A stretch of DNA of 64,000 nucleotides from Polyangiales bacterium (GCA_044229975.1 JBGARZ010000011.1:256001-320000), one strand, 5' to 3'; shown: positions 51,606 to 64,000, counted from the first letter of the stretch. Notes: a model not told the origin generated them from the sequence alone. Numbers and translations: made by a program.

Positions 51606-53177
51606 TCAGCAACCCACGAGGTGGATGACGCGTCCGCCGACGACGAGGTCGCGTTGAAACAATCGCTCCGTCCACTGCGTCGTCGCGCGCAGGTCGAAGA
51701 GAACGAGCCAGCCCTCGGCGAGACCCAGCGAGTCGAGGTAACGGACGATCTGCTCGTGGGCCTCATCCTCGGTCTCCGTGTCGCGCCGGAGCTTCGTCTC
51801 GATCACGATGGACTGGGTCTTCCAGACGACGAGGAGATCGAGCGCGCCCTTCCCCAGGGCGTACTCACGCTCGATGCGGCCGCCGCCGTTCACGATGCGT
51901 TGCAGGAAGGCCATGAGCATCAGGTGCGGCCCCGACTCGCGGTACGAGAACCCGTCGGCCGCGAGGTGGCCGTCCTTGCGCCAGAAGGTCTGCCACGCGG
52001 CCATGATCTTCGAGACGTCGAGACTCCCGTCGGCCCCCACGTACCAGAGCGTGCGCTCGGCGAGCGACTCCTGCGCGGCGGCTGTGAGCGCCCGCGGGAT
52101 GACCTCCCGATAGATCGGGTTGGCGACCTCCCAGCCCCCGTCGGCTCGCCGCAGGAGCCCGAGGCCCACGACGTATTGCAGGTCGGCGTCGACGTCGTTG
52201 AAGGGCAGCCTTCCACCAGCGAGCAGCGGGTCGAGCACGCGCCTCACCCGCGGCTCCTGCAACCGCGCGAGGAGCGAGTCGAGGTGCGTGCGGCGCTCCA
52301 GGATCATCGCGTCCTTCGCGGCGTCGATGTGCGCCGCGGTGACCGGCCTGGTACGGTCGCGCTCCTGTCGGTCGACGGCGTGGTCGGCGAGGGCGTTCAC
52401 GAGCCATGGCTGGCCCTGCGAGAGCGACCACGCGCGCTCGACGGCGGCGTCCTCGAAGCGCTGCCCAGTGGACGCCGTGTGCTGTTCGAGGAGCTCGCCC
52501 ACCTCGGGGCGCGTGAAGGCCGCGAGCGTCACGAGCTCGGCGGTCACGTTGAAAGGGGAGCTCGTGCCGAGCCAGCTCACCGCGCGGCGGTCGTCCTGCG
52601 ACAGGGTGTAGTCGCGGATCGCGCGCATCCCGACGAGCACCACGCTCTGGGGCGCGGGCGACACCTTACGCGAGATGTAGAGCGCCCGCAGTTGCGTGAG
52701 AAACGACACCATCGCCGCGCCCACCAGACCGTCGGCCTCGTCGACGAGGAGCACGAGCGGGCGCGCGCTCGCCGCGCAGAGCGCCGTCACGTAGCGCACG
52801 AGCGCGGTGCCAGGCGTGGTGAGCCACTCGTCCACCGCTCCGGCATCAGGTCGCGCGAGGTCGGGCGCGAGGAGCCCGACCCAGCGATCGAACTCGTTGA
52901 GCACGGCGCGCATGGCGGTCGGCACGTCGGCGGTCTCACGAGCGGCCTGGATGTCGACGAGGAGCGCGCGCGGTCCGTCGCCGGTGGCGTAGTGCTCGAC
53001 GAGCCACTGGAGGCTGGTGGTCTTGCCTGTCTGCCGACCCGCCGCGAGCACGAGCCAGCGCGCCTGCGCAATGAGCTCCATCGGGCGCCCGAGCCGACGC
53101 TCGGGCGGGAGCATGTAGTGGTCGTCGCGGTTGCAGGGCCCGGACGTGTTGAAGTAGCGCGCGCGGGTCTCGATCAC
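51606..53177 (-). CDS. AAA ATPase with C-terminal PD-(D/E)XK domain
   Basis: FNTSGPC, GRQTGKTT, LLVDEAD, SPFNV, REYALG..LDL..IETK. Confidence 0.88.
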   Translation of the reverse strand: MIETRARYFNTSGPCNRDDHYMLPPERRLGRPMELIAQARWLVLAAGRQTGKTTSLQWLVEHYATGDGPRALLVDIQAARETADVPTAMRAVLNEFDRWVGLLAPDLARPDAGAVDEWLTTPGTALVRYVTALCAASARPLVLLVDEADGLVGAAMVSFLTQLRALYISRKVSPAPQSVVLVGMRAIRDYTLSQDDRRAVSWLGTSSPFNVTAELVTLAAFTRPEVGELLEQHTASTGQRFEDAAVERAWSLSQGQPWLVNALADHAVDRQERDRTRPVTAAHIDAAKDAMILERRTHLDSLLARLQEPRVRRVLDPLLAGGRLPFNDVDADLQYVVGLGLLRRADGGWEVANPIYREVIPRALTAAAQESLAERTLWYVGADGSLDVSKIMAAWQTFWRKDGHLAADGFSYRESGPHLMLMAFLQRIVNGGGRIEREYALGKGALDLLVVWKTQSIVIETKLRRDTETEDEAHEQIVRYLDSLGLAEGWLVLFDLRATTQWTERLFQRDLVVGGRVIHLVGC

Positions 53178-57291: not shown

Positions 57292-58143
57292 TCAGCCGCC
57301 CATCTTCGCCAGCAGCGCCCTCAGCCGTGCGGTCTCCGCTTCTGCACTCTCCGCCCGGAGCCTGGCGTTTTCGGTCTCCGCCTCTGCACTATCGGCACGG
57401 GCCTCTGCACTCTCTGCGCGCACCTTCGCACTCTCGGCCTCCGCCTTCGCACTCTCGGCCTCCGCTTTCGCACGCTCAGCCTCCGCCGCGGCTCTCTCGG
57501 CCTCTGCCGCGGCTCTCGCTGCCTCCGCCTTCGCGCTCTCGGCTCGCTCCTCCGCGGTCGGCACCAGCACGTCTCCCCGCGCGCCCGTCGCCAGTCGCAC
57601 GCACGGCTTGCTCTTGTCGCTCACCGCCCGCAGCCAGCACCCCAGCGCACGGCTCTGCACCCGATCACCCTGCGACGCCTCCACCCGCACCAGCCGCCCT
57701 CGCACCCGCCGCCACACCTGCCAGCGCACCCGCTTGCGCGACCGCGACGTCGCCCATGGGTCGAACACCACGAGCTCCTTCGCCCCCATCGCCTCGTAGT
57801 CGGCCGGCGCCTCGTCGTAGTCCTTCTTCCAGTCGTCGCCAACGATCTCCAGCGCGAAGCTCGGCGCGTGGCCCTCCCACACCTTCCACGAGCTCACCGC
57901 CGGGATGTCCTGCGGCACGCCGTCCACCACGTAGACGTCCGGCGCGCGACGCACCCCGTTGTCGCCCTCCACCCAGTAGAAGAACTGATCCGCTCCCGCG
58001 TGGGCCACCCGTCCCTCTGCCACCAACCACTGCGCGATCAGCGGGCGCAGAAGCTCCGCGATGAGCCGCTGGAGTTCGTGCTCCGCCATGTCATCGCTCT
58101 CCGGGTAATGGACCGCGTCCCACCGCTTTGCCGTCGCGACCAT
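57292..58143 (-). CDS. Uma2-family endonuclease with heptad-repeat tail
   Basis: YPESDDMAE, APDVYVV, ALEIV, ELVVFDP; AEAESAK repeats. Confidence 0.88.
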   Translation of the reverse strand: MVATAKRWDAVHYPESDDMAEHELQRLIAELLRPLIAQWLVAEGRVAHAGADQFFYWVEGDNGVRRAPDVYVVDGVPQDIPAVSSWKVWEGHAPSFALEIVGDDWKKDYDEAPADYEAMGAKELVVFDPWATSRSRKRVRWQVWRRVRGRLVRVEASQGDRVQSRALGCWLRAVSDKSKPCVRLATGARGDVLVPTAEERAESAKAEAARAAAEAERAAAEAERAKAEAESAKAEAESAKVRAESAEARADSAEAETENARLRAESAEAETARLRALLAKMGG

Positions 58144-58229
58144 GACTCCCGATCTATCACACGCCGAGGCGCTCTGCTTAGCGCCCGCTGAAGCGCTCCA
58201 GGTACCGCTCGACGCACCGCCGCACCGTG

Positions 58230-58853
58230 GTCCCATCGGCGATGCCCAGCTGCCGAGCGGATCACCAGGTCGTCGCCGTGGCCGCGCTCTTGATCGAGCA
58301 GGGCGTTCTGCTCGTCGACGTAGGCGACGGCGTCGAGCAGCGCGGGCAGGCGCGTGTCGGCCGTCACGTCGCGAGGCACGGTGACGGTCAGCGCGTGGCC
58401 CGTCGCCAGCGCGAGGCGCATCGGGACGCCGAGCTCATCGAACCACGCCCCCAGGGCCGCGGTCACACGCTCGGCGAAGTCGTCGGCGCCGACCCACCCG
58501 GGCGCGCGCGGCTGCTCTGGAGCGGCGTCCGGAGACTGCGCCGCGAGGTCGAGCACCGCCTCACCGTGGGCCAGCGACTCGGGGGCGTGCGGGCGCAGGC
58601 GGAGGGAGGTTCCGTTGCGGCTGCCGAGGTCGATGACCCACGCGCCGTCGGGGCCACGGCCGACCAGCGCGTGCTGCGCGGAGACCTTCTCCGAGTCGAT
58701 GGCCAGCGGGACGACCCGCCACGCGGAGAGGTCGTGCGTCGACGCCACGCGCGCGGCGTCGGGCGCGCGACCGATCAGGAGCGCTGAGCCGGGTGCGAGC
58801 GTGGCCACGTGGGGTTCGGTGCGGCCGGGAACATGAACGCGCAGACGCAACAT
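58230..58853 (-). pseudogene. FHA-domain gene, probably a truncated sigma54-type regulator
   Basis: IGR, VSAQHA, DLGSRNGT; protein-like sequence ends near DDLVIRS. Confidence 0.55.
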
Positions 58854-59567: not shown

Positions 59568-61532
59568 GTGTCCAGAAGCTCGTCCCTCCTGCTCGCGTGT
59601 TGCCTCTCCACCGCGTGCGCGCAGACCGTCACCTCGGGCATCGCACAGCCCGACGCGGGCACCGCCGTCGACGCGCCCATCGTCATCGCTGACGTGAACC
59701 CGCCCACCGACGTAGGCGCGCCCGTCGACGCAGGTGCGCCCATCGTCATCCCCGACGGCGGCGTCTCCGACGATTGCCGCCCCGCGACGTGGTGCTGGGA
59801 GCGCCCCTTCCCCACGGGGGAAACAGCCGTCGCGGCCGTCGCGCCGTCCGCCGATCGCATGGCCTTCATCACCGAAGGCGGAACCCTCGTGCGCTGGGAG
59901 TCGGGCCGCTGGAGCACGCAGACGCTCACGCTGCCGGGTCAGCCGACGGGCCTGTGGCTCGGGGCCGATGGTGACGTGGTGCTCACCGTGGTCGAGCGCA
60001 TCTCCCAACGGGAGCGCTGGATCGTCGAGCTGCGCAGCGGCGCCCAGCGCATCACCGCGCTGGCGGGTCAAGGCTACGTGAGCAACCCGCAGTCGAGCGG
60101 CGACACCGTGTGGGTGCAGGGCGCGCGCGAGCTCTACCGGCGACGCGGCGACGCGGCCTGGGAGACCATCGACGGACCGGGGAGCGACGCGCTCATCGCG
60201 AGCCTGCACGTCGTCGGACCCAACGAGGTCATCGCGCTGGAGAGCTGGGGCTCGGGCAGCGGAACGGGCCTCCTCCACCGCTACAACGCCGGCGCGTGGG
60301 AGCTCGTGGTGGACTTCCGCGAGCGCTCCGCCGACCGGGTCGAGGGCCCCATCGTCGCGCACGACGGCGCGCTGTGGATGCGCACCTTCGAGCCCGACCG
60401 CGGGCTGCCGGGGGTCGTGCGGGTGGTGGGCTCGGAGACCGAATACCTGAGCGTTCCGCGGGGCACGAGCTCGATCAGCCTCGCCGCGGTGGGCACCGAG
60501 GTGTGGCTCATCGACGGCAACCGCGCGTGGCGTCGGCGAGGCGACGAGTGGGTCGCGGTGATGGGCTTCCCGGGTCGCTCGTACGGCGTCATCACGGGCT
60601 TCGGCGACGGCGTCGCGTGGGTGCTCAACGAGGGCATCCATCGCTTCAGCGGGGGCGCGTGGCAGCGCGTGGCGGAGGGCGACCAGCCCACCGGCAACTT
60701 CTGGGACGTGGGCGGTGAGCCGCTGCTGGTGTCGTATCGCCCGTCGGGCTTTCTCGCGCTGCGGGCGGGCACGCGACCGACGTGGGCGCTGGAGCCGATG
60801 ATGTTGCAGGGAGACATCATCGGCGACGCCGCGCCGGTGCAGGGCGTCGGAGCGCTCGCCACGGACGAGGGCGTGATGCGGGTGACCGGGCGCGCCGTGG
60901 GGCGGATGGTGACGTGGCCCGAGCGGGGCGTCGGGCGAGTGATGAGCGCGAGCCCGGCGGGCGTGTGGGCGTGGCTCACCACCAACCGCTTCATCGGCCT
61001 CGTCGGCGACGCGTGGACGGAGGTGACGGGGCCGGTGTTCGAGGACGTTCCGCGCGCGGGGTACACCGTCGACGCGGTGCACTTCACGGCGGACGGGCGG
61101 CTCTTCGTGGCGGCCTCGGTGGTGACCGGGGACAAGCAGGTGCGACGGCGGGTGTTCGTGCGCGAGGGCGAAGGGTGGCGGCTGGTCGTCAGCGAGATGG
61201 GGGTATTCGGGCGGACGGAGTCGGCGTTTGTCGTGGGTGATACGTCGAGCGACGTCTGGATCGGCCTGTCCGGCCTGCACCACTTCAACGGGATGACCGC
61301 GTCGCTGGTGGCGCCCGGCCTCGACGTGCAGGGGCTCTCGCGGCGCAGCGACGGGGTGGTGGTGGCCCTCACCGCGACGACGGTGCAGACCTGGGGCGCC
61401 GACGAACGGCGCCTCGCTCCGGTGCCGCTGCCGCCGGTGCGGGCGCACTTCACGCGGGTGCATCAGGTGGCGGGGACGCGGGTGCTGCGCGTGGCCAACG
61501 CGAGCGGGCAGGTGATGCGCTACACGCCGTAG
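59568..61532 (+). CDS. Beta-propeller-like lipoprotein
   Basis: Signal peptide with STAC; WCWERPFPTG; Trp-rich repeats. Confidence 0.8.
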   Translation: MSRSSSLLLACCLSTACAQTVTSGIAQPDAGTAVDAPIVIADVNPPTDVGAPVDAGAPIVIPDGGVSDDCRPATWCWERPFPTGETAVAAVAPSADRMAFITEGGTLVRWESGRWSTQTLTLPGQPTGLWLGADGDVVLTVVERISQRERWIVELRSGAQRITALAGQGYVSNPQSSGDTVWVQGARELYRRRGDAAWETIDGPGSDALIASLHVVGPNEVIALESWGSGSGTGLLHRYNAGAWELVVDFRERSADRVEGPIVAHDGALWMRTFEPDRGLPGVVRVVGSETEYLSVPRGTSSISLAAVGTEVWLIDGNRAWRRRGDEWVAVMGFPGRSYGVITGFGDGVAWVLNEGIHRFSGGAWQRVAEGDQPTGNFWDVGGEPLLVSYRPSGFLALRAGTRPTWALEPMMLQGDIIGDAAPVQGVGALATDEGVMRVTGRAVGRMVTWPERGVGRVMSASPAGVWAWLTTNRFIGLVGDAWTEVTGPVFEDVPRAGYTVDAVHFTADGRLFVAASVVTGDKQVRRRVFVREGEGWRLVVSEMGVFGRTESAFVVGDTSSDVWIGLSGLHHFNGMTASLVAPGLDVQGLSRRSDGVVVALTATTVQTWGADERRLAPVPLPPVRAHFTRVHQVAGTRVLRVANASGQVMRYTP

Positions 61533-61575: not shown

Positions 61576-64000
61576 ATGACCACCCCAGTGGCTCCGAAGA
61601 CCGCGCCGAGGGGCGTCGCGGACGCGATGAAGCGCATCGCCGCCTCGCGAGACGTAGCAGCCCGCGCCGATGACCTCCCGGCGCTCCCGGCCTTCGACAT
61701 CGAAGCCATCCGCGTGCCGGTCGAGCGGCGGCTCGCGGAGCAGTTGGAGAAGATCCCGGCCTTCGCGAGGCTGCGCGACAAGATCGACCCGCCGCCACCC
61801 GAGGCCGTGCGTCGACGGCTCATGGCCGAGGCCCTGCGGCTGTCGGAGTCCATGGCGCCGGACACCTACGCCTACGCCCACGCCGCGCGGCGAACGCTCA
61901 ACATCGACCGCCCGCTGGAGATCTATCAATCGGGCGGCCAGGAAAACGCCGCGATCCATCTCATCGAGGAGCCCATCGTCCTCGAGATCATGGGGCGGCT
62001 CATGACCCTGCTCGACCGCGGCGCGGCCATCGCGGTCTTCGGCCACGAGTTTGGCCACTACCTCGCGCACGGTCCGTGGACGCCCATCGGCCGCACCGGC
62101 ACCGCCGCCAACGTGCTGATGCGGATGGACGACCTCGACGACACGCTCGTGTCCGTCGCCAGCGCGCTCTTCATGGCGCGCGAGCTCACGGCCGACCGCG
62201 TCGGGATGCTCGCCTGCCAGGACCTCGCCGCCCACCTCCGCCTGGAGATGATCTGCACCACGTCGCTCCCCGGCGACGCGCTCACCTGGGACACCGACGC
62301 GTACCTCCTCCAGTGTCGCGAGCTCATCGACGCCCTGCTCGAAGGCAGCGACCAGGCGGCGGGCAGCACGCACCCCGAGCACAGCGTGAGGGCGTGGGCC
62401 GCGTGGCTCTTCAGCGAGACCGCGGAGTACCGCGCGCTCACCGGCAAGGGCCCCGGCACCCGCGCGCTCGCCGACGTCGACGCCCTCATCGACCGCGTGC
62501 TCGCCGCCCCGTCGCTCGACTTCGACTGGAACATGTTCGAAGCGCCGCCCGTCGAGATGCACGAGTGCGCCCTCGCGTGCAGCGTGCTGGTCGCCAGCGC
62601 CGACGGCGACCTCGCCGACGTCGAGGCCGACGTCATCGAGAAGGTGTTCGCGCCGCTGGTCCCCGACTGGCGCTGGTACCTCGACGTGGACAACGCCCGC
62701 GAGCGGCTCGCCGAGGTGTCGCCGGTGATGCAGTCGGTCGGGGGTGACGCGCAGCGCTCGCTCTTCCTGCTGCTCATGCACGTCGTCGCCGCGGACGGGA
62801 AGGTCTTCGAGGGCGAGGTCGACATGGTGCTCGCGCTCGGCGACTACCTCGGCCTGGGCCCCCTCTTCCATCGCCTCATGGGCGCCTCGCTGCGCGCGCT
62901 GGGGTTGTCCCTCCGCGTCGACGAGGAGCCCGCCGTGTCGATCCCGCTGCCGCCGCGCAGCGGGGAGGCGCTGGAGGCGCTGCGGGCCTTCCTCACCGGC
63001 GTCGTGCGGCGCCGGGGCGCGCAGACCACGCTGCGCCGACTGGTGCGCCTCGTGGGCGCGACGGACCCGACGCCGGAAGTACTGCGCGCCCTCACCGCGG
63101 AGATCGCCCGCGCCGGGGTCACGCTCGACCCGCCCTTCGATCAAGGCGATCTGGAGACGGAGCGCTCGCTGACGGTTCCGCATGCGACCGTCGCCGCGGC
63201 CCCGGTGCGCGCCGCCCGCCGCGACGCGTCGCTGCTCCCCGAGGAGCGGGCCAACCTGCTGCGCGCCGTCACCGTGCTCCGCGACCAGCTCGTCTCGGGC
63301 AACGGCAACAGCCCCGCCGTGCGCCTCCGTCGCCCGCGCGCCGGCCGCACCATGGACCTCCACGACCTGGAGTCCCTCTCCACCGGCCTCGCCGAGCGCA
63401 CGCTCGCGCAGCTCCGCGAAGGCCGCCGCGCGAAGCTCGTCGACGCCACCGAAGCGGGCGCCCACGCGGGGGGACAACGCGTCGCCGCCGCGCTCCTGCT
63501 GCTCGACCGCGACGCGAGGCAGCGCGTGGAGGAGACCGGCGCGCGCGACCTCGCAGTGGGCCATCCCTTCCTCGCGGGCATGGTGCAGGGCTACCTCGTG
63601 CGCGGCCCGCTGGTGCTGCACCCGGTGTCGCTGGAGCGCGACGCCCGCGGCGCCCGCGGCTTCGGGCTGGTGCCGTCCAAGGACGAACCGCCGCAGGTCA
63701 ACATGGCCCTCCTGCGACTGCTCTTCGCGAAGAAGGGCTACGCGTTTACCGACGCGCTCGCGGAGTTTCTCGACGCGGCGGCGGCCGACCCCGCGCGCAG
63801 CGTCGAGGCCATTCTGGAGACGCTCGCGCAGGTGGGGCTCACGCCGACCCGCGCGCCGAGCGCCCTCTCCCCGCTGCGCGACCGCGCCGAGGAGATCTTG
63901 CAGTGGAGCGGCGACCGCCTGGAGCTGGAGGAGTGCGCCGTGCTGGGCTTCTTCCCGCAGTCCGACAGCGACCTGCTGCAAGACTACGACGCCCTGCTCA
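61576..64000 (+). CDS. Partial gene: M48 peptidase + TerB-like + DUF4011 fusion, runs off the window
   Basis: Open frame of over 800 codons, absent from the ORF track. GHEFGH, ELTADR, THP; ASADGDLADVE and AADGKVFEGE; EETGARDLAVGHPFL, RGPLVLHPVSL, VNMAL, AVLGFF. Confidence 0.85.
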   Translation, partial: MTTPVAPKTAPRGVADAMKRIAASRDVAARADDLPALPAFDIEAIRVPVERRLAEQLEKIPAFARLRDKIDPPPPEAVRRRLMAEALRLSESMAPDTYAYAHAARRTLNIDRPLEIYQSGGQENAAIHLIEEPIVLEIMGRLMTLLDRGAAIAVFGHEFGHYLAHGPWTPIGRTGTAANVLMRMDDLDDTLVSVASALFMARELTADRVGMLACQDLAAHLRLEMICTTSLPGDALTWDTDAYLLQCRELIDALLEGSDQAAGSTHPEHSVRAWAAWLFSETAEYRALTGKGPGTRALADVDALIDRVLAAPSLDFDWNMFEAPPVEMHECALACSVLVASADGDLADVEADVIEKVFAPLVPDWRWYLDVDNARERLAEVSPVMQSVGGDAQRSLFLLLMHVVAADGKVFEGEVDMVLALGDYLGLGPLFHRLMGASLRALGLSLRVDEEPAVSIPLPPRSGEALEALRAFLTGVVRRRGAQTTLRRLVRLVGATDPTPEVLRALTAEIARAGVTLDPPFDQGDLETERSLTVPHATVAAAPVRAARRDASLLPEERANLLRAVTVLRDQLVSGNGNSPAVRLRRPRAGRTMDLHDLESLSTGLAERTLAQLREGRRAKLVDATEAGAHAGGQRVAAALLLLDRDARQRVEETGARDLAVGHPFLAGMVQGYLVRGPLVLHPVSLERDARGARGFGLVPSKDEPPQVNMALLRLLFAKKGYAFTDALAEFLDAAAADPARSVEAILETLAQVGLTPTRAPSALSPLRDRAEEILQWSGDRLELEECAVLGFFPQSDSDLLQDYDALL

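What the first reader, a model, noticed from the sequence alone, without database searches (positions are those of the whole stretch)
61576..64000. M48 peptidase-TerB-DUF4011 fusion, candidate defence protein
Seen: one frame, missing from the ORF track, with M48 motifs (HEFGH, ExxADR, THP), two TerB-like ADG..E motifs and then DUF4011 motifs. Known: DUF4011 precedes SF1 helicase and Vsr-type nuclease domains in the Hhe anti-phage system, and TerB domains occur in defence loci. Inference: a protease-gated helicase/nuclease; I do not know of this fusion being described.
Basis: partly seen in the sequence, partly recalled or inferred. Interest (0 to 1): 0.7.

Follow-up and report, generated by a model that had tools for sequence, protein, structure and literature searches.

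The report
Helicase swaps nuclease for zinc protease
This 1,955-residue bacterial protein joins the helicase frame of known anti-phage proteins to a zinc-protease-plus-TerB module with conserved catalytic motifs, while its nuclease domain has lost the residues predicted to be catalytic, so it likely defends against phages by sensing nucleic acid and cutting proteins rather than DNA.

Summary
The frame runs past the window into a 1,955-aa protein: M48 peptidase, TerB, a predicted winged helix, DUF4011, a Upf1-like SF1 helicase and an MTES_1575 (Vsr-like) nuclease fold. All 99 long hits to the N-terminus carry DUF4011, and fused proteins group together on a helicase tree (SH-aLRT 100). Peptidase zinc residues are kept in 112 of 116 members and TerB acidic residues in 115 of 116. 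The nuclease is not: 0 of 116 keep the second acidic residue, against 80 of 82 peptidase-less relatives. Defence is inferred from kinship with ProA, Hhe and PDC-S37 (below the ProA and Hhe cut-offs), patchy spread (13 of 300 phylum genomes) and clear defence neighbours at 7 of 23 loci against 0 of 12 controls. The window's own locus has none. ProA already carries a different, cysteine-type peptidase-like domain, so this is a new variant of a known kind. No activity has been tested.

The parts
61576..64000 (+). 5' part (residues 1-808) of a 1,955-aa ORF that continues beyond the window (whole gene G000:C2:317576-323443 = L001:3576-9443); a later start at Met18 (61627) is possible. Beyond the window lie: first helicase lobe with Q motif and Walker A GPPGTGKS (residues about 855-955); an insertion of about 530 residues (960-1490, not modelled); the rest of the Upf1-like SF1 helicase (1495-1830); and an MTES_1575 (Vsr-like) nuclease fold with decayed active site (1855-1952: SPFE>LPLK, RIDLAV>RVPVAV, IECDG>ILCDE, YHS lost, RD>RW)
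   Evidence: helicase motif residues in 93 of 93, Upf1 fold; nuclease counts
61798..62445 (+). Soluble M48-type (gluzincin) zinc peptidase domain, about residues 75-290: H157-E158-x-G-H161, third ligand E203, T-H-P-E 265-268
   Evidence: Pfam; H157, E158, H161, E203 in 93 of 93 and 112 of 116; model matches 3c37, BepA, ZMPSTE24
62548..62895 (+). TerB domain, about residues 325-440, with acidic residues D343, E350, D407, E414 (metal binding in TerB is recalled, not tested)
   Evidence: all four kept in 115 of 116
62938..63180 (+). Small domain, residues about 455-535, with helix-strand-helix-helix-strand-strand order typical of a winged helix and conserved arginines R478, R487, R488, R491; predicted nucleic-acid binder
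   Evidence: secondary structure of the model; conservation; no library hit, so the fold name is my reading
63238..64000 (+). DUF4011 region, residues about 555-815 (Pfam match 623-716), cut by the window end

Best explanation
It is a single-gene protein built on the Hhe/Prometheus helicase frame that likely acts in phage defence, with a Upf1-like helicase predicted to sense abnormal nucleic acid and, by ATP-driven movement, likely to switch on its own N-terminal M48 zinc protease, which would cut a host or phage protein, while the decayed nuclease fold would serve only to bind nucleic acid. Shown here: the domain order, its conservation, kept protease, TerB and helicase motifs, loss of the nuclease motifs, one origin compatible with the helicase tree, patchy spread and frequent defence neighbours. 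Inferred: defence function, the order sensor then protease, and nuclease inactivity. TerB is most simply the protease's regulatory cap, because the two also travel together as stand-alone proteins. The trigger and the substrate are unknown.
For: Protease zinc residues kept in 112 of 116, TerB acidic residues in 115 of 116, and the helicase motif residues checked in 93 of 93. Nuclease positions, fused against peptidase-less: first Asp 17/116 against 78/82; second acidic 0/116 against 80/82; R[DE] 0/116 against 80/82; aromatic-His 0/116 against 46/82. A ProA-type protein from G056 keeps all of these. In the Vsr family an essential Mg-binding Asp, a His general base and a neighbouring Asp form the active site (PMC3239194, passages). 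Fused proteins fall on one side of a 100-support branch (39 against 84 rows). The protein scores 519 bits to PDC-S37, 553 to ProA and 335 to Hhe. It is patchy: 13 of 300 phylum genomes, 3 of 8 same-genus genomes with this query. Hosts named in record titles include Polyangiales, Rhodanobacteraceae and Opitutaceae. Clear multi-gene defence systems lie next door at 7 of 23 loci, including one copy set between cas8g and cas1 of a type I-G CRISPR operon; 0 of 12 control loci have one (one-sided Fisher p 0.036). No conserved partner gene was seen.
Against: Nothing was assayed. The window's own locus has no PADLOC hit among the neighbours scanned, and 14 of 23 loci show no clear or probable defence system. 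The control came only from the window's phylum and used a stricter threshold; within that group the contrast is 4 of 15 against 0 of 12 (p 0.078). The nuclease loss is one inherited event, not 116 independent ones. One acidic position (D1903) and a new acidic neighbour (E1904) remain, so a rearranged active site cannot be excluded; mapping the residues onto Vsr rests on motif order, with only a weak structure hit (3hrl, E 0.41). Four of 116 members have lost protease residues as well and still keep the helicase, so the protease is not indispensable everywhere. No self-cleavage site or substrate was identified.
Confidence: 0.45

Rival explanations
1. Defence protein in which the protease is a gate: it cuts the protein itself or an inhibitor after sensing a phage signal through TerB, and the released helicase/ATPase, or a nuclease with a rearranged active site, does the damage.
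For: Zincin domains in large conflict proteins are proposed to act by self-processing as well as on host targets (PMC5512222, passages). A flexible low-confidence linker lies between the winged-helix-like domain and DUF4011 (model residues 503-542). D1903 is D or E in 104 of 116 and E1904 is E or D in 115 of 116. Two members add a DEDD exonuclease (PF00929; P0017, P0019).
Against: At most 2 of 4 nuclease acidic positions survive in any fused member, while 62 of 82 peptidase-less relatives keep 3 or 4. No neighbouring inhibitor gene is conserved.
Confidence: 0.25
2. Genome-maintenance enzyme, not defence: the helicase tracks along DNA or RNA and the zinc protease clears proteins stuck or cross-linked to it, in the manner of Wss1.
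For: Helicase, two predicted nucleic-acid-binding folds and a zinc protease suit this job. Most loci, including the window's own, sit among ordinary genes. Wss1 degrades DNA-protein crosslinks (10.64898/2026.09.30.754977, passage).
Against: Patchy spread, changing neighbours, a copy embedded in a CRISPR operon and copies beside BREX, Wadjet, Qat, Mza and type I RM. The nearest profiled relatives are anti-phage proteins. The peptidase model matches M48 enzymes best.
Confidence: 0.15
3. The M48-TerB module is a sensor that binds or clips a phage protein or responds to metal or stress, and passes the signal to the helicase; proteolysis is secondary.
For: Four of 116 members keep the fold but lose zinc or catalytic residues (L076 reads HQxxH). 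TerB occurs in the Shango and Bunzi defence systems.
Against: 112 of 116 keep the complete catalytic set, which is more than binding alone would need. With the nuclease decayed, no other obvious effector is left.
Confidence: 0.12

Closest known systems
Prometheus ProA (NCBIfam NF058533, antiphage_ProA)
   Same: Single large gene; DUF4011, SF1 helicase with a long insertion, MTES_1575 fold; 553 bits over model positions 642-1704 of 1903. A ProA-type protein also has a peptidase-like N-terminus (GTCLD...GHAF motif).
   Different: Below the 1500-bit cut-off. The N-terminus is M48-TerB-winged-helix-like instead of the Cys/His transglutaminase-like domain, with no similarity between them. No DUF3320. 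Nuclease residues lost.
Hhe (NCBIfam NF042953; PADLOC PDLC02194)
   Same: DUF4011 plus Upf1-family SF1 helicase plus Vsr-like fold; 335 and 259 bits. Hhe is classed as SF1_Upf1 (10.1101/2024.02.29.582594, passage).
   Different: Far below the 2000-bit cut-off. No HEPN match in Pfam, whereas Hhe is listed among HEPN systems. Carries M48-TerB and a decayed nuclease.
PADLOC candidate PDC-S37 (PDLC05009)
   Same: Best PADLOC match, 519 bits, model positions 285-1338 of 1550.
   Different: The match covers residues 850-1952 only; the peptidase-TerB part is outside it. PDC systems are described as predicted candidates; PADLOC's own calling rule was not applied.
MTES_1575-type giant proteins of Anantharaman et al. 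2013 (PMC3710099)
   Same: Stand-alone giant SF-I helicase plus Vsr-fold proteins with a fused peptidase domain, for which protein cleavage was proposed as a further line of defence (passages).
   Different: There the peptidase is transglutaminase-like and sits beside HEPN and a Vsr DNase treated as the main weapon. Here it is a zinc M48 with TerB, and the DNase is decayed.
Stand-alone M48-TerB proteins (ESM Atlas clusters; no described function found)
   Same: Same two-domain module; 23-29% identity in family relatives; a closer 446-aa stand-alone copy in G350 (L061).
   Different: No helicase. In a search of longer proteins with a stand-alone query, 6 of 7 hits were DUF4011-helicase fusions.

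Membership tests
Prometheus ProA | Score above NCBIfam NF058533 cut-off (1500 bits) | tested here: not met
   553 bits; homologues P0016 and P0055 score 559 and 513
Prometheus ProA | DUF4011 domain | tested here: met
   32.9 bits, cut-off 22.2
Prometheus ProA | SF1 helicase with insertion | tested here: met
   AAA_11/AAA_12 and about 530-residue insertion; Upf1 fold
Prometheus ProA | C-terminal DUF3320 | tested here: not met
   The protein ends 3 residues after the MTES_1575 match and has no DUF3320 hit; the ProA-type control has one at 42.8 bits
Prometheus ProA | Nuclease domain with conserved acidic and His residues | tested here: not met
Prometheus ProA | Demonstrated phage protection | not testable with these tools
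   needs an assay
Hhe | Score above NCBIfam NF042953 cut-off (2000 bits) | tested here: not met
   334.7 bits
Hhe | HEPN domain | tested here: inconclusive
   No HEPN family among the 15 Pfam hits at E 0.1; the insertion was not modelled
Hhe | Upf1-family SF1 helicase | tested here: met
PDC-S37 | HMM match under PADLOC's score and coverage rule | tested here: inconclusive
   519 bits, positions 285-1338 of 1550; rule not available
Peptidase M48 | HExxH plus downstream Glu zinc ligand and THP motif | tested here: met
   H157, E158, H161, E203 in 112 of 116; H266 in 92 and P267 in 93 of 93
Peptidase M48 | Pfam PF01435 gathering score | tested here: inconclusive
   21.1 against 20.3 on the fragment, 16.7 on the full protein; several homologues pass
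Peptidase M48 | M48 fold | tested here: met
   The four best peptidase rows are 3c37, BepA, ZMPSTE24 and Ste24, Z 8.5-6.5 (their M48 membership is recalled); Foldseek alone found nothing
Peptidase M48 | Zinc-dependent proteolysis | not testable with these tools
   needs purified protein
TerB | TerB fold with two ADG..E acidic motifs | tested here: met
MTES_1575 / Vsr-like nuclease | Pfam PF18741 score above cut-off | tested here: met
   42.4 against 38.2 bits; strand-helix order in the model fits
MTES_1575 / Vsr-like nuclease | Catalytic Asp, second acidic residue, His and distal Asp | tested here: not met
   mapping to Vsr positions is my inference

The most novel reading that the evidence does not exclude
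A one-protein immune sensor in which a Upf1-like helicase reads phage nucleic acid and directly activates a fused M48 zinc protease capped by TerB, having replaced the ancestral nuclease output: a guide-free, nucleic-acid-triggered metalloprotease, spread across several bacterial phyla and sometimes embedded in CRISPR-Cas operons.
Probability: 0.35. Interest if true: 0.78.

Novelty: new variant of a known kind. Interest (0 to 1): 0.6.

Why it matters
Helicase defence systems such as Hachiman use the helicase as sensor and a nuclease as weapon (start of abstract). This family keeps the sensor, lets the nuclease decay and conserves a zinc protease instead, which gives a clean test of whether a helicase can drive proteolysis. 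It also offers a single-gene handle on two open questions: what DUF4011 helicases (Hhe, Prometheus) sense, and what TerB domains do in defence. Members exist in named species (Fulvimonas soli, Polyangium fumosum, Amphritea pacifica), so it can be tested directly. If the protease is switched on by a defined nucleic acid, it could also serve as a reporter enzyme.

Tried and rejected
Assembly chimera or chance ORF: rejected, since 98 other proteins share the N-terminus and DUF4011. Two TerB domains: rejected, the two motifs belong to one domain. Membrane protease like HtpX or Ste24: unlikely; the highest 19-residue hydropathy is 1.62, in the alanine-rich insertion. Operon with the upstream 654-aa or downstream 212-aa gene: not supported; neither has a Pfam hit above cut-off or a PADLOC hit, and I saw no conserved neighbour in other loci (by eye). 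Paralogue in the genome: none beyond a short P-loop match. Foldseek on the 772-residue N-terminal model found nothing at E 0.001; the wide alignment search did, and Wss1 was not among its 50 listed rows, which does not exclude it. The wide fold search of the C-terminal model never ran because the machine was busy, so the nuclease fold has no structural match here; one search covers the helicase only. A sequence search of the decayed nuclease against solved structures gave no relevant hit. The Atlas gave no usable hit for the winged-helix-like part. The Rnk_N hit is below cut-off and was ignored. One search was out of frame and was replaced. test_one_clade was not run, and the tree used the quick method with a midpoint root. 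Expression and complex prediction were not examined, and residues 809-1430 were not modelled. Literature searches found no description of this fusion: DUF4011 alone gave 7 papers, 6 listed, of which I searched three for terms; M48+TerB+phage+defense gave 0. The 2012 Ter-systems paper and Gao et al. 2020 were not held under the ids I recalled, and the primary Prometheus paper did not appear. These papers or their supplements, and the unread supplement of PMC3710099, may list the architecture.

Full report
Observation. The frame starting at window 61576 has no stop before base 64000 and is listed as 3'-open. In the window's genome it ends at G000:C2:323443 and encodes 1,955 aa (P0001). Pfam on the in-window part gives Peptidase_M48 (141-273), TerB (382-429) and DUF4011 (623-716), each above cut-off, the first two barely. 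On the whole protein AAA_11, AAA_12 and MTES_1575 (1860-1952) are added, and M48 and TerB drop below cut-off.

Domain identity. An AlphaFold2 model of residues 37-808 (40-row alignment, mean pLDDT 83.7) found nothing by Foldseek. The wide structural search ranked TerB first (2ou3 Z 9.3, rmsd 4.2, 135 aligned; 2h5n Z 8.6), then M48 peptidases (3c37 Z 8.5, rmsd 4.4, 157 aligned; BepA 7.9; ZMPSTE24 7.5; Ste24 6.5) (their M48 membership is recalled). These Z values are middling, but they agree with Pfam, with a profile hit to 2ou3 (E 0.0011) and with ESM Atlas M48+TerB clusters at 0.96-0.97 for homologue P0016. Between TerB and DUF4011 the model shows a helix-strand-helix-helix-strand-strand unit with conserved arginines; I read it as a winged helix, without a library hit. 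A model of residues 1431-1955 (pLDDT 90.7) matches Upf1 best (E 1e-11; Z 15.6). No transmembrane segment is evident.

Family. A search with residues 40-560 among proteins of 1,075-3,422 aa returned 99 hits, one being the window's own record; all 99 carry DUF4011 and 91 carry MTES_1575 (only the 7,992 best candidates were scored, and the length filter favours fused forms). In an alignment of P0001 with 92 of the 98 others (six short, partial or near-duplicate ones left out), H157, E158, H161, E203, D343, E350, D407, E414 and the Walker A and B residues are invariant. Stand-alone M48-TerB proteins also exist, so the module probably came from that pool (inference). With a stand-alone query against longer proteins, 6 of 7 hits were DUF4011 fusions.

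The nuclease is decayed. A search of cluster representatives with the last 525 residues (best 150 listed) supplied relatives with and without the N-terminal module. Of 243 proteins held, 229 had both the helicase core and a full nuclease region: 116 fused, 82 peptidase-less, 31 partial or other. Fused against peptidase-less: Asp at 1884, 17 against 78; acidic at 1901, 0 against 80; R[DE] at 1914-1915, 0 against 80; aromatic-His, 0 against 46. No fused member keeps more than 2 of 4 acidic positions, while 62 of 82 relatives keep 3 or 4. A ProA-type protein from G056 (two contig halves scoring 1025 and 1102 bits) keeps SPFE, RIDL, ECDG, YHS and RD. In Vsr and I-Bth0305I the active site is Glu25, Asp51, His64, His69 and Asp97 in Vsr numbering (PMC3239194, passages); by motif order four of these five equivalents are lost in P0001, which is my mapping. 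Against this: D1903 and E1904 are kept, a 17-member peptidase-less subclade also looks partly decayed, and the loss is one inherited event. On a tree of the helicase core (39 fused and 84 other rows, quick method) the fused label needs one change, at a branch with SH-aLRT 100; the root is a midpoint and test_one_clade was not run. The peptidase set is complete in 112 of 116; four members (P0109, P0115, P0132, P0139) have lost it as well.

Defence evidence. The protein matches PDC-S37 (519 bits) and Hhe (259) in PADLOC, and ProA (553 of 1500) and Hhe (335 of 2000) in NCBIfam. The N-terminal profile hit 13 of 300 sampled phylum genomes at E 1e-60. The N-terminal query hit 3 of 8 same-genus genomes; the ProA profile hit 5 of 8, which may include split assemblies or other DUF4011 helicases. 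I called genes with a simple codon model around 23 distinct loci: 15 of the 16 (L037 left out as syntenic with L034; L042 scanned only in part), 7, and the window's own. L062 and L063 duplicated earlier loci, L076 was not scanned, and flanks vary in length. Clear multi-gene systems lie beside 7: Wadjet with a type IV restriction enzyme (L036), BREX (L040, L064), Qat (L041), type I-G CRISPR-Cas with the gene set between cas8g and cas1 on the same strand (L044), Mza-like genes (L047) and type I RM (L066). Two more are probable (L045, L046). Twelve 14-kb control loci at round-number positions in eight carrier genomes (12 of 14 fetched, size cap) had only generic kinases and RtcR-type AAA regulators. 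One-sided Fisher p is 0.036, or 0.078 for 4 of 15 when limited to loci I place in the window's phylum. The control is small, from one phylum, at a stricter threshold, and kin are not independent. The window's own neighbours give no PADLOC hit. Payne et al. argue that a single embedded instance warrants testing for defence, but they examined Hma, BREX, DISARM and RM, not CRISPR (10.1101/2024.01.29.577857, passages).

Mechanism. The parts under strict conservation are the protease, TerB and the helicase; the nuclease chemistry is not. The simplest reading is an output swap: the helicase, helped by the decayed nuclease fold and the winged-helix-like unit, binds an abnormal nucleic acid, and ATP-driven movement lifts a TerB or DUF4011 restraint from the M48 active site, which then cuts a host or phage protein. 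Every causal step in that sentence is inferred (confidence 0.45; defence in any form about 0.75-0.8). The rivals are a self-processing gate (0.25), protein-crosslink clearance (0.15) and a binding sensor (0.12).

Comparison with what is known. It is built like Hhe and Prometheus but fails both cut-offs, lacks DUF3320 and has lost the nuclease residues, so it is not filed as either. A peptidase on this frame has precedent: Anantharaman et al. described giant SF-I helicase proteins with HEPN, a transglutaminase-like peptidase, a Vsr DNase and wHTH, and proposed protein cleavage as a further defence line (PMC3710099, passages). The ProA-type control shows a Cys/His motif in its N-terminus that is unrelated to the M48 module. 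Reported Prometheus variants in Asgard archaea include loss of DUF4011 or DUF3320, an added WYL domain and a split form, with no M48 or TerB in the passages seen (PMC13700489). Effector swaps from nuclease to peptidase are reported for Tiamat-like proteins (10.64898/2026.09.30.754977, passages). TerB occurs in Shango and Bunzi (10.1101/2022.11.11.516204 and 10.1101/2024.10.26.620412, passages). Of the other papers I saw passages only (PMC5512222, PMC3424549, PMC11232893, 10.1101/2024.02.29.582594). No search found this fusion in print, but the 2012 Ter paper, Gao 2020 and the primary Prometheus paper were not seen, nor any supplements. Earlier notes of this scan had no sequence look-alike; two notes on ProA-like proteins with dead peptidases are unchecked leads.

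Verdict. A real, conserved and apparently undescribed architecture: a new variant of the DUF4011/Upf1-like defence helicases, marked by gain of an M48-TerB module and decay of the nuclease. Interest 0.6; 0.78 if nucleic-acid-triggered proteolysis is shown.

Noticed in passing
L044:2924-17738 (Fulvimonas soli): The fusion gene sits inside a type I-G CRISPR-Cas operon, between cas8g and cas1/cas2, on the same strand; the best candidate for testing.
   Followed up: partly
L015-L023, L025, L028-L031; L061:1039-2379: Stand-alone M48-TerB proteins of about 450-560 aa; those in L015-L031 have an extra N-terminal domain of about 110 residues rich in Gly, Trp and Tyr, sometimes two paralogues per genome. 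No function found.
   Followed up: partly
L014, L026, L027: M48 domain close to the fused type (95-127 bits) without TerB, followed by a low-complexity tail ending in a motif like 'IERRFRALE'.
   Followed up: no
P0017, P0019: Members with an added DEDD exonuclease domain (PF00929), N-terminal in P0017 (Nannocystis); a possible regained nuclease output.
   Followed up: no
P0027, P0032-P0034, P0036, P0038, P0040, P0043 and others: A subgroup carries a conserved C-terminal extension of about 70 residues after a flexible linker, with a GGPRRAR motif, resembling a winged helix.
   Followed up: no
L076:9637-15453; P0109, P0115, P0132, P0139: Members that have lost both the peptidase catalytic residues and the nuclease residues yet remain full length.
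   Followed up: partly
P0146, P0147, P0151, P0152 and 13 others: A 17-member peptidase-less subclade mostly reads 'GVDC..FL' and lacks the YHS histidine, so its nuclease may have decayed separately.
   Followed up: no
P0177, P0196, P0225: Relatives outside the fused group carry N-terminal TPR arrays in the position the M48-TerB module takes here.
   Followed up: no
L056:1399-4157: A copy split between two reading frames after TerB; sequencing error or pseudogene.
   Followed up: no
window 57292-58236 (-): Uma2-family putative restriction endonuclease with an Ala/Glu-rich repeat tail.
   Followed up: no
window 51606-53177 (-): AAA_22 ATPase whose C-terminus looks like a PD-(D/E)XK domain (the nuclease reading is mine).
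   Followed up: no
window 59568-61532 (+): 654-aa protein with a lipoprotein-like signal and Trp-rich repeats, 43 bases upstream of the fusion gene; no Pfam, NCBIfam or PADLOC hit.
   Followed up: partly
L001:13799-14776 (-) and L001:16065-17396 (-), beyond the window: An RNA ligase-family gene and a vWA-domain gene 4-8 kb downstream.
   Followed up: no
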